Shown here: piece after piece, positions 15,001 to 21,000 of the stretch
How the letters are laid out: each line of letters begins with the position of its first letter
Numbering within the stretch: the first letter of the stretch is position 1
Assembly: GCA_963826785.1 (NCBI GenBank)
Contig: CAWGYD010000010.1
Location: forward strand, 1 to 64,000
DNA from: an uncultured delta proteobacterium
GTDB taxonomy: Bacteria; Desulfobacterota; Desulfobacteria; Desulfobacterales; Desulfosalsimonadaceae
Direction of reading: 5' to 3'
Length of the DNA: 64,000 nt
Position numbers: made by a program

Positions 15001-18000
15001 AATCCCTTTTCCACCAGCAGATAATTGATGAAGGCATCTATCAGCTCATCGATTACATTCATGAAAGCAAATCCGCCGCCGTCATTTCAGTTTTCAGGCC
15101 GTTTAAGATTTCCACCCCGTCACCGGTGACGCGCACCATGTTTTCAAGGCGGATGCCGCCCCAGTCGGGCAGGTAGACGCCGGGTTCGACGGTAAAAATC
15201 ATGTTTTCTTCGATGACCGTATCGCGCTCCGCCACCGGACTGATGGAGGGAAGTTCATGAATGTCGATGCCCACGCCATGTCCCAGTCCATGGCCGAAAT
15301 AATCCTTATATCCATGTTCGGCGATATGGCCCCGGGCGATGTCATCGATGGATTTTGAGCTCACACCGGGGCGGATGGCGGCAATGGCCTTCTGCTGGGC
15401 GTCATAAACAATGGTGAAAATCTTTTTGAACTGCGGATCCGGTTGGCCCATCATCACGGTTCGGGTCATGTCGCTGCAGTAGCCGTCCAACCGGGCGCCC
15501 CAGTCAAACATCAGGGGCGATTTTTCATCCAGGACGCTGTCTCCGGGTATGGCGTGGGGCAGGGCGCTGTCCGGCCCGAAGGCGGCGATCACCGGAAAGG
15601 AGAGGGACTGGGCGCCAAGCGATCGCATCTGCTGCTCCAGATTCCATGCCGCGGCCGTTTCGGTCTTTCCCGGCGAAAGGTTTGCCAAAAATCCCCTGAA
15701 AGCGGCCTCCGCAAGCGCAATGGATTTCCTGACGGCCTCTATTTCATCGTCATCCTTGATCAGCCGCAGAGATTCCACCAGGTTTGCCGTCCCCACCATT
15801 TCAACGGATAACTTTTGCTCTTCGATTTCCTTGAGGATCGACTGATGCTGATCCACGGACATGCGGCGGGACTCGAAGCCGAGGCGTTTGACGCCCAGCT
15901 GTTTTAAAAGCGCCGGCAGTTCTTTGGCCAATCCCTTTTTATAATTGATAACATCGTAGCCGGGCGCTTCGGCTTCGGCCTGCAGGGTATACCGGGAATC
16001 CGTGGCCAGAATCAGCGCATCCGGCGATATCAGCAGCACGCCGGCGGATTCGTCAAACATGGTGTCCTCGCCGGTAAATCCGCTCAGGTAGCGGCGGTTG
16101 GCTTCACTTGACACCAGGAGGGCATCGATTTGTTTTTCAGTGAGGATTTTTCGTAATTTGTTGATTCTGTCGGTAAGATGATCGGCCATATGTTCTCCGG
16201 AATGTGATCTGGATGCCCGCCTTTGCGGGCATGACGTTGATGAAAAAAAGTAAATTTTATGCCAGAACGTGTTTGTCCAATATAAAGCAGGCAAACCGGC
16301 CTTCAAATACCAGCCGCTCTTTGCAATGGACCGTGACATCCACCATTTGCTTCTTCCCGGGGGCAAGATCGGATTGCGCCCGGGCCAGGACTGTTTCACC
16401 GGCCCGCACCGGTTTTAAGAATTTAACCTCCGCACCGCCCAGGACCACATGGGGATGGTTGACGGCGATCATGGCCGCATGATCGGCCAGCCCGAAAATA
16501 AACCCGCCGTGAACCAGTCCATTTTCGTCAACCGCCATTGCATCGTTGGTCTGCAATTCCACCTGGCTGGAGCCATCGGCGATGCTGACAGGTGTTCCGC
16601 ACAATGTATAATCGATGTGCCGGTGGGTCCGGATATCCATTTTTCATTCCTTTCATTATTGATGAACCCGCAAAAAGTCCGAAGTTCGATAGGGGTCGGG
16701 AAAGGCTCTCGCCCTCCCCGCCCTCCGAACCGTGCGTGCGGTTCTCCCGCACACGGCTCTCCAGTTGGTAGTTTCAACATCGTGACTGGCGCGCCACAGC
16801 ATGGGCTTCGGTTAAGGTGAAAAGCCCGTGCTCAGCGAAAAATGCATTAGGCCAGCGTTTATGATCGGCCAGGCAACGACCCATACCCGGTCGTCGCTTT
16901 TGTTTGCGCAAGACAGATCGCAGTCGGCGGCGGACAAAACCATCAATCATCTTAAAGGTAAATGGATTCGCATGTTTGAAGTAGCCAAACCAACCTATGA
17001 GCATCGGATTCAAACTGCCTATTATCTGGTCCAGGCTCTCTCCACGGGATCGGCCGGTTTTGGCCCGTATACGCTCCCGCAGGGACTTGAGGCTTTTCTT
17101 TCGAACCCATCGCTTTCCGGCTTCAAACCGGTAACCCAGGAAGTCAAAGCCTTGTCCTTCTACTGTGCAGTCTCCCACGTGGGTTTTGTCCGGATGCAGG
17201 GTAAGTTCATTTTCTTTTACCCAGGCGCGTATGTCGGCCAGGGCCGACTGCGCTGCCTCTGCACTGGGACACATCACCACAAAGTCATCTGCGTATCGGA
17301 CCATGCGATAACCTTTTGTCCGCATCAGCACATCCAGCGGATGCAGGTACAGGTTCGCCAGCAGGGGACTGATCACCGCACCTTGCGGAGTTCCTCCGGT
17401 CGGCGTCCAGCGCTCCAGCCCACGGACGATATCCTGACCCAGGTATCCCCGAATCAGATCCAGAATACGCCCGTCGCTGATGCGCTCCTGCACTCGGATC
17501 ATCAATCGGTCATGCGGAATGGTGTCAAAGTAGCTCGCAAGGTCGGCGTCCACAACGTGCGTGTAGCCTGCCTTAATCAAACCGTCTACCTCCCGCAGGG
17601 CGTCTTTGCATCCGCGTCCAGGTCGAAAGCCATAGCTCGAATCCAGAAAGTCCCATTCGAAAATCGGCTCTATTACCAGCTTCAGCGCAGTTTGTACGAT
17701 GCGGTCTTTTACCGCCGGAATGCCCAGGGGTCGAGTGCGACCCGGCCCTTTGGGTATCTCCACGCGCTTGACCGGCTGCGGCCGGTAAGTGCCGGCCTTC
17801 AATGCTTCTTCCAGCTCCTTAAGATATTTATCCGCCTTCAACGAAAACCGCTCAACGCTCTGCCCGTCCACTCCGGCCGCCCCCTTGTTTCGCGCGACCT
17901 TGTGCCACGCCAGTTCCAGGGTGCCGGGACGAACCAGCTTGTCGATCAAGCTGAACCACTTGCCTCCTTTGACGCCGTTTTCCAGCGCCGCCAGCATGCG

Positions 18001-21000
18001 CGGCGTCCAAATCGAGGCTTCCACCCAGCACCAGTCCCGATGCCCGGTCTCTGCGCCTTGCTTAGCCGTTACCGGCACTGCCGGCGCTTTGCTTATGCTT
18101 TGCCTGTCGTTGGATTTCACGCATCTACCTTCCTGCCTCCCTTCCCTCGGCACGGTTTTGCTTCCCGCGCTTTCCGCAGCATCGGCTGCTTCGGTACTAT
18201 GAAGGCTCTGACTCCTGCCTGCGTCACCTCGCAAACAGGTCTCTCCGCTTATCTCGCCACACCTTTCCGGCGTTCCACCTCCAACCACGTGATGCGCCCC
18301 GGCACCGCTTTACGCGCCAATACCCAGCGTACCGGACGATTTTCGGACTTCACCATGAATGAGCAGGCTCGTCGCTGCATCCCGCCGAATCAAGTTCGTC
18401 ATCCTGCGGACCGCCAGTTCGTCTCCGGTTGCTCTCCACCCCACCTCGCGGTGACGCAGTTACCCTCGACTACGGGGCCTTGGCTTACCCCGACACGGAC
18501 TTACACCGTGCTGATATGGCGCCTTTACGGACGCACTCACTCCGGTGAAAACCGGAGTCTATAACCAACTTAGTTTGTAGTAGATTCCGGCCTCCGCCGG
18601 AATGACGAAAGCGTAAAATCCGACTTTTTACGGCTTCATCATTACTGCCCGCGGTTCTTTACCATAAGGTTAAATGCCGGGCTTTGCATGCAAATACAAA
18701 AAAAACAGCAATCATCATGATTTGAAAGTTTTACCCGCTTTTCTTTTCGCCTTGCCCGGGAATTTGCATAATGGGCAAAAATCATTATCAATTAACGAAT
18801 ATGATATAAAAAATATACTTGAACAATTCAAGGGGTATTGGTAACTCAGGTTTCATCATCCATAAAATCAGCGGCTGCATTAAATTGCCGGCCGCACAGC
18901 ACGGGAAAGGGAATCTCTTGGGAAAAAAAGCGCTGATTACCGGCATCACCGGTCAGGACGGGGCGTACCTGGCTGAATTTCTGATGGACAAGGGGTACTC
19001 CGAAGTTCACGGCATCAAGCGGCGGTCATCGCTGTTCAACACCCAGCGGGTGGATCATCTGTATCAGGACCCCCATGAGCAGAACCTGCGGTTTGTCTTG
19101 CATTACGGTGATCTGACCGATGCCGCCAACCTGGTGCGCATCGTCCAGGAAACCCAGCCGGACGAAATTTACAACCTGGCGGCCCAGAGCCACGTCAAGG
19201 TGTCTTTCGAGTCCCCGGAATACACGGCAAATGCCGACGCTCTGGGCACACTGCGGCTGCTGGAAGCCGTCCGCATCCTGGGAATGGAAAAAAGGGTCCG
19301 TTTCTATCAGGCCTCCACTTCCGAACTGTACGGTCAGGTCCAGGAAATTCCCCAGACCGAAAAAACCCCTTTTTATCCCCGTTCCCCCTATGCATGCGCC
19401 AAGCTATACGCCTACTGGTGCACGGTCAATTACCGGGAAGCTTACAATATGTTCGCCTGCAACGGGATCTTGTTCAACCACGAATCGCCCAGTCGCGGCG
19501 AAACCTTTGTCACCCGCAAGATCACCCGCGCCGTGTCCCGAATCGCCCTGGGCCTGGAGCGCCATCTGTACTTAGGCAATTTGGACGCGCTGCGCGACTG
19601 GGGACATGCCAAAGACTTTATCCGGGCCCAGTGGATGATCCTGCAGCAGGATACCCCGGATGACTATGTGATCGCCACCGGCGTTCAGCATTCGGTCAAG
19701 GAGTTTTGTGAAAAGGCCTTTTCCTGCATCGGCGTCCGGCTGGCCTGGAAAGGGGAGGGGATCGATGAAAAAGGGGTGGTCGACAGCATCCGACCCTCCG
19801 AGATGATGGAGACGCTGCCGGTAAAGAATGAAATCCAGTCCCTGAAAAAGGGGCAGGCGGTGATTTCGGTCGACCCGCGCTATTTCCGCCCCACGGAGGT
19901 TGAAACCCTGCTGGGCGATCCGTCCAAGGCCAAACAGAACCTGGGGTGGAAACCGGAAATCACGTTTGAGGAAATGGTGTCCGAGATGGTGGCCCATGAT
20001 CTCACCGAATCGGCCCGCGAGGCCATCTGCCGGAGAAACGGATTTCCCGTGCCCTCCAGCTGCGAAGCGCTGATGTAATGAGGAGGCCCTGATGGAAAAG
20101 CATTCGAGAATATATGTTGCCGGGCATGACGGGCTGGTGGGGTCGGCCCTGATGCGGAAATTGACCGCAGATGGATATGACCACCTGATCACCCGCAATC
20201 TCAAGGAACTCGATCTTCGCTGCCAGGAGGCGGTGGATGAGTTTTTTGCAGCCGAAAAGCCCGAATACCTGATCCTGGCGGCAGCCAGGGTGGGGGGGAT
20301 CGTGGCCAACAACACCTATCCGGCCGAATTCATCTATGACAACCTGATGATTCAGACCAACATCATTCACGCGGCCTGGAAAAACGGGGTCAAGCGGCTG
20401 GTGTTTCTGGGCTCTTCCTGCATCTATCCCCGGGAATGCCCCCAGCCCATCAAGGAATCGTATCTGCTCACCGGGCCCCTGGAGGCCACAAACGAACCGT
20501 ACGCCATCGCTAAAATCGCCGGCATCAAAGTCTGCCAGTCCTATAACCGCCAGTACGATACCGGCTATTTTGCCGTCATGCCCACCAACATGTACGGCCC
20601 CCATGACAATTTCGACCTGGAGACCAGCCATGTGCTGCCCGCCCTGATCCGGAAATTTCACGAGGCCAAGGTCAGAAAAGATCCGGCCGTAACCCTGTGG
20701 GGCACCGGAACCCCCCGCCGGGAATTTCTCCACGTGGATGATTTTGCCGATGCATGCCTGTTTATCATCAACCTGGATGAGCCGGCCTATCAGTCGCTGG
20801 TGGCAGACGGGCGGACCCCGCTGATGAATATCGGATGCGGCCTGGATATCACCATCGCCGAACTGGCCGATCTGATCCGCGAAATTGTGGGATACACCGG
20901 GGACATCGTCTATGACAAAACCCGGCCGGACGGCACGCCCCAGAAACTGCTGGATGTCTCCCGCCTGGCCGAAATCGGCTGGAAATATTCCATCTCCCTG

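What a model noticed while it worked through the whole genome (the two positions that open the first line are those of the whole stretch)
16661..18640. Order-wide 132-bp MITE whose internal hairpins are the homing sites of a group II intron
The genome holds a family of ~132-bp miniature inverted-repeat elements (19-21-bp terminal inverted repeats GATGAACCCGTAAAAAGTC, two internal GC hairpins, 6-bp A/T-rich target-site duplications). Three copies (C10:16661-18640, C5:280852-282831, C5:304620-306606) are split by the same 1848-nt group II intron (RT/maturase g03679, g01953, g01976), always 2 nt after one of the element's two hairpins (..AYUCCGG-N4-CCGGARU-GA^CGAA..), the way class C introns use terminator stem-loops. 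The MITE thus supplies the intron with dozens of dispersed, gene-free homing sites.
Evidence so far: blastn of one copy (C10:29405-29556): 68 hits, 58 of >=120 nt; consensus with perfect 21-bp TIR. TIR scan (<=3 mismatches): 80 TIRs, 34 inward-facing pairs, 27 exactly 132 bp apart and 3 at 1980-1987 bp; 29 of 34 lie outside called genes; flanks of the 25 copies printed show direct 6-bp repeats such as AACATT, AAGAAT, AATGTT, AACGTT. The three long pairs are 98-99% identical over ~2 kb and consist of MITE part + intron + MITE part. Intron = 1848 nt, starts GUGCG, ends CCCUAU, Rfam Intron_gpII hit at its 3' end (rna.tsv, call 3), ORF with RVT_1+GIIM only; the 5' exon ends in the hairpin + GA in all three, in either arm of the element. 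The empty target CCGGARTGACGAA occurs 60 times in the geno [...]
(Added by a program. Inside this text positions count along the whole contig: contig position 1 is position 1 of the stretch shown here. "Call 12" and the like, gene names such as g00115 and contig names such as C1 are that model's own, and its searches are not shown. The text may have been shortened before it was handed on; [...] marks where a part breaks off. The agent that wrote the report below was given it as the finding of a first reader that could run no searches.)

Follow-up and report, generated by a model that had tools for sequence, protein, structure and literature searches.

The report
Hairpin-homing intron inside a REP-bearing MITE
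A self-splicing mobile intron has landed three times inside a small transposon-derived repeat, and its whole lineage seems to pick landing sites by a tiny DNA hairpin plus five or six matching bases, a targeting mode that has been described as limited to a different intron class.

Summary
Observation confirmed. The genome holds about 30 copies of a 132-bp MITE with A/T-rich 6-7-bp duplications (24 of 33 exact). Three copies are split by one 1848-nt group II intron (minus strand here). The MITE is a CGTC-1-type REP dimer between the ends of an IS1182-like transposon, found intact in relatives but not in this assembly. The intron is not class C: AGC triad, full-length domain V, EBS1 of 5-6 bp, and a protein clade that holds an intron labelled 'Unclassified' by Miura 2022. 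It still works like class C. In 78 distinct relatives, EBS1 and EBS3 covary with the exons and no EBS2 signal appears. A hairpin at a fixed distance before the junction is present in 34 of 39 and 35 of 40 (shuffles about 1). The targets are unrelated REP-like palindromes, so the hairpin is the target and the MITE is only its local carrier. Miura reported 'unclassified' introns near predicted terminators, and this scan noted REP-homing introns before on other DNA. Recognition of hairpin shape is inferred, not shown.

The parts
16655..16660 (.). Left target-site duplication, matches the right one at 5 of 6
16661..16679 (+). MITE left terminal inverted repeat (19 bp, IS1182-like end)
16661..16688 (-). 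3' exon side of the split MITE; base 16688 is IBS3 (C)
   Evidence: a 91-nt contig in run X3 skips exactly 16689-18536 (may be any empty copy)
16689..18536 (-). Group II intron, 1848 nt, En-minus, 'unclassified' lineage
16689..16725 (-). Domain VI
16726..16759 (-). Domain V, 34 nt, AGC triad, 5-nt loop
16774..18120 (-). Intron-encoded RT/maturase, 448 aa from a GTG start (searches used 451 residues, 3 upstream of it); YADD; no endonuclease domain
18244..18536 (-). Domain I (IIB-like scaffold, no room for an EBS2 arm)
   Evidence: covariation in 78 introns
18285..18285 (-). EBS3 (intron G252), pairs with the first 3' exon base
   Evidence: 70 of 72 pair, with compensatory changes
18316..18321 (-). 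alpha' at the tip of a stem-loop 3' of EBS1; partner alpha at 18479-18484
   Evidence: complementarity plus one covarying pair 57/217; the assignment is inferred
18357..18362 (-). EBS1 (UCAUUC, intron nt 175-180); fits both MITE arms, through one G-U pair for arm A
18537..18542 (-). IBS1, last 6 nt of the 5' exon; overlaps the base of hairpin A
18539..18558 (.). Hairpin A: CGTC-1-type REP (8-bp stem, 4-nt loop); the target used at this locus
   Evidence: definition in PMC3733652
18584..18603 (.). Hairpin B: second REP; its empty target lies between 18605 and 18606 on the + strand and is the site used by copy C5:280852
18622..18640 (-). MITE right terminal inverted repeat
18641..18646 (.). Right target-site duplication
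23480..23612 (.). Empty MITE copy (133 bp) with exact 6-bp duplication
28968..29099 (.). Empty MITE copy with 6-bp duplication, followed by a diverged partial copy from 29106
29415..29546 (.). Empty MITE copy (reference), 7-bp duplication

Best explanation
Two layers. (1) The 132-bp element is a non-autonomous derivative of an IS1182-like DDE transposon: two 19-bp ends around a pair of CGTC-1-type REP hairpins, spread in trans with 6-7-bp A/T-rich duplications (ends and duplications shown; mobilisation inferred). (2) The intron belongs to a broad, non-class-C, endonuclease-less lineage with a IIB-like ribozyme that has no EBS2. It reads 5-6 bases of the 5' exon with EBS1 and one base of the 3' exon with EBS3 (shown by covariation). 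In addition it needs a short GC-rich hairpin whose loop ends 10-11 nt before the junction (association shown; physical recognition inferred from class C). Most likely the RNP attacks single-stranded DNA at the replication fork, the base of the hairpin melts to pair with EBS1, and the remaining 4-5-bp cap is bound by maturase and RNA in place of EBS2-IBS2 (inferred). Each member has tuned EBS1 to a repeat of its host; here that repeat is the REP carried by the MITE, which gives about 60-70 mostly intergenic sites.
For: EBS1 covaries with exon positions -1 to -5 (z 6.6-9.4 in 39 introns; MI 1.3-1.5 and 96-100% paired in 78), weakly with -6, and no pairing partner is seen for -7 to -24. EBS1 5 of 5 paired in 34 of 40 new metagenome introns against 2.8 when permuted. 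Hairpin of 5 bp or more in the 9-12 nt window: 34 of 39 (shuffle mean 1.0, max 5; upstream control 233 of 6777) and 35 of 40 in the replicate (shuffle 1.2). With distance unconstrained, 30 of 35 best stems end their loop at 10-11 nt. CGTC REPs are entered at both head and tail with the same spacing (20 and 12 of 78). Four of four tested targets are multi-copy in their hosts: 32, 26, 9 and 354 matches. In this genome only 176 of 6267 EBS1+EBS3-compatible sites, and 67 of 530 outside long ORFs, have the hairpin, yet all 3 insertions do. Tree: lineage 100/100, apart from C, g6, F, D, E. IS with the same ends in 17 of 30 loci, 11 with exact 6-8-bp duplications.
Against: No experiment; hairpin binding is inferred. 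The 9-12 nt window was chosen after seeing the first set; only the second set is a clean test. Rows are related by descent and several share a repeat family, so they are not independent. 5 of 39 and 5 of 40 miss the strict hairpin test. The three local insertions may be only two events, which leaves p about 0.016 against non-ORF sites. No transposase relative was found in this 88%-complete assembly. Deep tree nodes are unresolved: lineage+C+g6 has support 56/18. Class references were 1-3 sequences each.
Confidence: 0.75

Rival explanations
1. Survivor bias. The intron uses only EBS1+EBS3, inserts widely, and copies persist only in harmless intergenic repeats; the hairpin is a by-product of EBS1 matching a REP.
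For: Targets are intergenic multi-copy repeats; 6267 sites in this genome fit EBS1+EBS3; IIE/IIF introns self-splice with EBS1 alone (PMC3753933).
Against: The loop-to-junction distance is 10-11 nt across unrelated repeats and in both orientations of CGTC REPs; EBS1 could otherwise match any part of a repeat. Only 67 of 530 non-ORF compatible sites have hairpins.
Confidence: 0.12
2. The hairpin matters in the precursor RNA, for 5' exon anchoring during splicing as in B.h.I1, and not for DNA choice; only copies next to hairpins can splice and spread.
For: B.h.I1 needs its stem-loop for exon ligation (PMC1702495). All three local copies lie in sense with the downstream gene in divergent gaps (window genes).
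Against: In class C the same motif is bound as DNA (PMC10190682); a splicing-only need would leave many dead copies at sites without hairpins, which are few in the sets seen.
Confidence: 0.08
3. One reading: a class C intron, or one specialised on this MITE, using its hairpins as terminators.
For: 3 of 3 copies in the MITE; 7 of 19 same-order loci also lie in TIR elements; closest solved structures are class C RTs at 34% or less identity.
Against: AGC triad and 5-nt domain V loop in 71 of 71 scored; EBS1 of 5-6 bp; class C clade 100/100 excludes it and lineage+C alone is rejected at p-AU 0.017; no U-tract; 0 of 48 broad relatives have the TIR.
Confidence: 0.04

Closest known systems
Class C (IIC) group II introns: B.h.I1, GsI-IIC, E.r.I1 (terminator type) and IIC-attC
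   Same: No En domain, no EBS2, EBS1+EBS3, insertion just after a DNA stem-loop; protein fold closest to GsI-IIC RT (TM 0.80).
   Different: AGC triad and full domain V; EBS1 5-6 bp against 3-4; the stem overlaps IBS1 in 57 of 68 and leaves a 4-5-bp cap against a stem of about 12 bp plus a spacer (PMC10190682); targets are REP-like, without U-tract; separate protein clade.
'Unclassified' U1/U2 IEP types of Miura et al. 2022 (PMC8919778)
   Same: NZ_CP022993 intron, labelled Unclassified in their Table 3, sits inside this clade; U1/U2 were reported often right after predicted terminators and near C and g6 on the tree.
   Different: The passages read give no EBS analysis, no fixed geometry and no link to REPs. 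Whether this clade is U1, U2 or U3 is not in the table; the figure file could not be read.
Classes E and F (IIE/IIF ribozymes)
   Same: 5-nt domain V loop and alpha' at a stem-loop tip (PMC3753933); En-minus; about 1.85 kb.
   Different: They show an apparent EBS2-IBS2 duplex, which is absent here; the protein tree places E and F elsewhere (lineage+F p-AU 0.028).
CGTC-1 REP dimers (Di Nocera 2013, PMC3733652), including dRS3
   Same: CGTC tag, 8-bp stem starting with A/T pairs, 4-nt loop, short tail, inverted dimer; that paper notes dimers inside a larger palindrome in H. neapolitanus.
   Different: [quoted passage not shown]
IS1182/IS5-like insertion sequences and their MITEs
   Same: DUF772 + DDE_Tnp_1 + DDE_Tnp_1_6 transposase between the same ends, about 1.9 kb, 6-8-bp duplications.
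   Different: Scores 150 bits against the IS1182 cut-off of 270, so IS1182-like only; no description of this MITE was found in my searches.
REP-targeting insertion sequences (Tobes and Pareja 2006, PMC1525189)
   Same: REPs as safe multi-copy targets; its table lists 2 of 9 P. putida group II intron copies at REPs.
   Different: Those are DNA transposases; no intron lineage or mechanism appears in the passage seen.

Membership tests
Group II intron | GUGYG...AY ends, domains V and VI, RT/maturase ORF | tested here: met
Group II intron | Self-splicing and mobility activity | not testable with these tools
   no RNA run listed; three near-identical copies suggest recent movement
Class C / IIC (features from PMC1702495) | CGC triad and shortened domain V | tested here: not met
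   AGC, 34 nt; AGC in 71 of 71 scored among 78
Class C / IIC | EBS1-IBS1 of 3-4 bp | tested here: not met
   5 bp covary, a sixth weakly
Class C / IIC | No EBS2 | tested here: met
   no pairing signal for -7 to -24
Class C / IIC | [quoted passage not shown] | tested here: met
   34 of 39 and 35 of 40; short and without U-tract
Class C / IIC | Protein inside the class C clade | tested here: not met
   three labelled references
Class C / IIC | 11-nt bulge with AGGAA | not tested
   not examined
Class E/F (IIE/IIF) | 5-nt domain V loop; alpha' at a stem-loop tip | tested here: met
   71 of 71 for the loop; alpha' inferred
Class E/F (IIE/IIF) | Apparent EBS2-IBS2 duplex | tested here: not met
Class E/F (IIE/IIF) | Protein inside the E or F clade | tested here: not met
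   one E and three F references
Miura 'Unclassified' (U1-U3) | Clusters with a labelled member | tested here: met
   L090 inside the 100/100 clade
Miura 'Unclassified' (U1-U3) | Which U group | not testable with these tools
   supplementary figure file too large to read
MITE | Short, non-coding, TIRs, duplications, many copies | tested here: met
MITE | Autonomous partner with the same ends | tested here: met
   in 24 of 151 genomes of the order; not found in this assembly
IS1182 family (partner transposase) | NCBIfam NF033551 cut-off | tested here: not met
   150.5 against 270 bits, though best hit; query holds some X from assembly Ns
CGTC-1 REP | CGTC tag, 8-bp stem, 4-nt loop, CCA-like tail, dimer | tested here: met
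   both arms; tail CTA here and CCA in most relatives

The most novel reading that the evidence does not exclude
An unnamed class of group II introns, spread over at least ten phyla, with a IIB-like ribozyme that has no EBS2 and reads a 4-5-bp DNA mini-hairpin by shape at a fixed distance. It would be a fourth target specificity (REP-like palindromes) beside homing sites, terminators and attC, and a possible intermediate between IIC and IIB recognition. In this order an IS1182-like transposase would also be what spreads CGTC REPs, and with them the intron's landing sites.
Probability: 0.5. Interest if true: 0.75.

Novelty: new variant of a known kind. Interest (0 to 1): 0.6.

Why it matters
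A 2015 review lists three target specificities for bacterial group II introns (PMC4424553), and a 2022 structure paper calls the DNA stem-loop motif exclusive to IIC and proposes that EBS2 evolved to replace it (PMC10190682). A large non-IIC lineage with hairpin targeting and no EBS2 makes that evolutionary idea testable, gives a mechanism for Miura's unexplained 'unclassified' signal, and offers an intron whose specificity is about 6 programmable bases plus a small hairpin. The MITE gives CGTC REPs, said to lack a transposase, a plausible vehicle in one order, and shows a three-tier nesting of IS, MITE with REP, and intron.

Tried and rejected
EBS2 search: none in 39 or 78 introns. Column-wise pairing inside the exon was weak (z up to 3.5) because loop length varies; an anchored stem score was used instead. 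The AU test was ill-posed (it split the lineage) and is ignored; proper groupings are. The 'careful' mixture tree did not finish, so that call shows the quick tree. No class G protein was recovered from L101. Same-window hairpin control on 15 labelled introns of other classes gave 1 of 15, but four boundaries were uncertain, so it is weak. Transposase search in this assembly: no hit. Viral contigs gave MITEs but no TIR-flanked transposase. No RNA holder listed; contigs of four DNA runs did not span the locus, so no site-specific empty allele was seen. Loci around thioesterase orthologs in 11 relatives show no TIR pair, too distant to serve as empty sites. RAYT (Y1) genes were not found among 45 neighbouring ORFs of 26 loci. 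GC skew gave no usable strand bias, 2 of 3. Simon 2008 is not held. The Abebe 2013 supplement held only program options. Earlier-finding look-ups by sequence, by place and by MITE words were empty.
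Full report
1. Observation. 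The sequence is as described. Window 16661-18640 is a 132-bp element split by an 1848-nt group II intron on the minus strand (18536..16689); the junction reads hairpin-GA^GUGCG...CCCUAU^CGAA. Two more copies lie on C5, identical to each other and one base from this one; Rfam finds no other group II intron in the assembly. The TIR scan gives 80 hits and 34 real pairs, 27 of 132 bp. Exact 6- or 7-bp duplications flank 24 of 33 elements, against 0.49 by permutation. The two TIRs are 19 bp and usually differ at one base, and this copy's duplication matches at 5 of 6.

2. The MITE. Each arm holds CGTC, an 8-bp stem, a 4-nt loop and a short tail, which fits the CGTC-1 REP definition (PMC3733652, section 6 and passages read). 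The TIR motif occurs in 105 of 151 genomes of the order, reversed control 0-1 per strand. The 132-mer matches 57 of 201 by blastn, often partly. Seven of nine fetched loci from relatives hold complete 131-133-bp elements, four of them with exact duplications; length is kept even where the spacers are rearranged. A TIR pair 1877 bp apart in G026 encloses a DUF772/DDE transposase whose best NCBIfam hit is IS1182, below cut-off. Relatives of it occur in 24 of 151 genomes; 17 of 30 loci show the same ends about 1.9 kb apart and 11 of those have exact 6-8-bp A/T-rich duplications. No copy was found in this 88%-complete assembly. So the element is a MITE of an IS1182-like family carrying a REP dimer; mobilisation itself is inferred.

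3. How the intron reads its target. I fetched 79 genome loci and 80 metagenome loci with related proteins. In the first set 57 5' ends were kept, plus the window's own; five rows were dropped (two short exons, three doubtful boundaries, two of which do have the hairpin) and near-duplicates removed, leaving 39. In the second, 49 ends were located from intron motifs alone and 40 were distinct. Intron positions 175-179 covary with exon positions -1 to -5, position 180 weakly with -6, and nothing pairs with -7 to -24. G252 pairs with the first 3' exon base in 70 of 72, with compensatory changes. The covariation fold of domain I leaves no room for an EBS2 arm (my reading). A perfect stem of 5 bp or more whose 3' arm starts 9-12 nt before the junction is present in 34 of 39 (shuffles mean 1.0; upstream control 3.4%) and 35 of 40 (shuffles 1.2). 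The window was set after seeing the first set, so the second is the clean test; five rows fail in each. With distance free, 30 of 35 best stems end their loop at 10-11 nt. The stem overlaps IBS1 in 57 of 68 and leaves a 4-5-bp GC-rich cap in 61 of 68. The target sequences are unrelated: by a rough rule 20 enter CGTC REPs at the head, 12 at the tail, 9 are GTAG/GTGG-like and 37 are other. Four tested targets recur 32, 26, 9 and 354 times in their hosts (the 9 include both-strand hits of one site). The TIR lies upstream in 0 of 48 broad relatives and 7 of 19 loci from other genomes of the order. In this genome 176 of 6267 compatible sites have the hairpin (67 of 530 outside long ORFs), and 73 of 99 strict sites lie beside a TIR.

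4. Class. Domain V is 34 nt with AGC and a 5-nt loop (71 of 71 scored), against CGC, a shorter stem and a 3-4-bp EBS1 in IIC (PMC1702495, passages). The loop and alpha' position resemble IIE/IIF (PMC3753933, passages and section 6), but those show an EBS2 duplex. With references labelled from Miura's Table 3 (PMC8919778; passages, sections 7 and 9, table searches), the protein falls in a 100/100 clade with an 'Unclassified' intron, outside C (100/100), g6, F, D, E and A (29 of the 54 rows). Lineage+C alone and lineage+F are rejected mildly (p-AU 0.017 and 0.028); lineage+C+g6 is neither shown nor rejected. The predicted fold is closest to GsI-IIC RT. Named hosts of the first set span ten phyla and one candidate division.

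5. Mechanism. Shown: boundaries, EBS1 and EBS3 pairing, lack of an EBS2 signal, the fixed hairpin geometry, MITE anatomy and the IS with the same ends. Inferred: attack on single-stranded DNA at the fork, as for En-minus introns (PMC4424553, passages); melting of the hairpin base; shape binding of the cap by thumb, C-terminal domain and RNA, by analogy to E.r.I1 (PMC10190682, passages). Rivals are survivor bias with EBS1 alone (0.12) and a splicing-only role for the hairpin (0.08).

6. Prior art. Class C is the model. PMC10190682 calls the DNA stem-loop motif exclusive to IIC and PMC4424553 lists three specificities. Against full novelty: Miura 2022 reports g6, U1 and U2 introns often directly after predicted terminators; Tobes and Pareja list 2 of 9 P. 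putida intron copies at REPs (PMC1525189, one table passage); Sonbol and Siam speculate on hairpins before IIB introns at attC (PMC7923331, passages). The g6 and one other 'Unclassified' reference have hairpin-plus-T-run exons (by eye), unlike this lineage (T-rich ends in 7 of 78). Ten literature searches listed no paper describing a REP-targeting, EBS2-less, non-C lineage or this MITE; most results were seen as listings only, subscription papers and Simon 2008 are not held, and Miura's figure file could not be read and may bear on the U1/U2 assignment. I also read PMC3552965 (abstract and main section), PMC8632793 (passages) and one supplement part of PMC4028801, without finding such a description. 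This scan has noted REP-homing introns on other DNA, two with the same reading of hairpin plus five or six bases; these notes are unchecked and are not counted as support.

7. Verdict.

Noticed in passing
G000 C5:304620-306606: The third intron copy sits in hairpin A, but the bases from about -4 to +12 around the junction are those of arm B. This hybrid is in no empty copy, the intron is identical to the arm-B copy 24 kb away, and both keep their own duplications. Gene conversion with exon co-conversion, arm-to-arm conversion before insertion, or an assembly artefact.
   Followed up: partly
window 16257-16640 and 18819-20078: The split MITE lies 20 nt upstream of the start of a thioesterase - Xaa-Pro peptidase - XerD-like gene run, in a divergent gap with gmd. 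All three intron-bearing copies lie in divergent gaps, in sense with the downstream gene.
   Followed up: partly
L385:1480-2251, L391:1472-2296: Short relatives of 772 and 825 nt without an RT ORF sit after REP hairpins with their own EBS1; L391 keeps only a remnant of the protein's first 60 residues.
   Followed up: partly
L040, L042, L047, L090: A subgroup inserts after a short GCG-rich hairpin upstream of a divergent tyrosine recombinase gene (integron-integrase-like, below cut-off); in L090 that gene is next to an IS91-family transposase.
   Followed up: partly
L308-L345: The same TIR bounds many other short elements of about 64 to 190 bp with unrelated interiors, so the order holds several MITE families from one IS family.
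   Followed up: no
L087, L089, L237: These MITEs gain 9 nt in the centre and lose 9 nt beside the right TIR, keeping 132-133 bp; end-to-end length may be constrained.
   Followed up: no
L039: One intron copy is followed directly by the 5' end of another (tandem introns).
   Followed up: no
window 16774-18120, residues about 30-58: Tryptophan-rich N-terminal extension conserved in the lineage and outside the region aligned to class C RTs; function untested.
   Followed up: no
window 9424-9604; 38883-38956, 41030-41103, 42088-42171: Cobalamin riboswitch and three tRNA genes.
   Followed up: no
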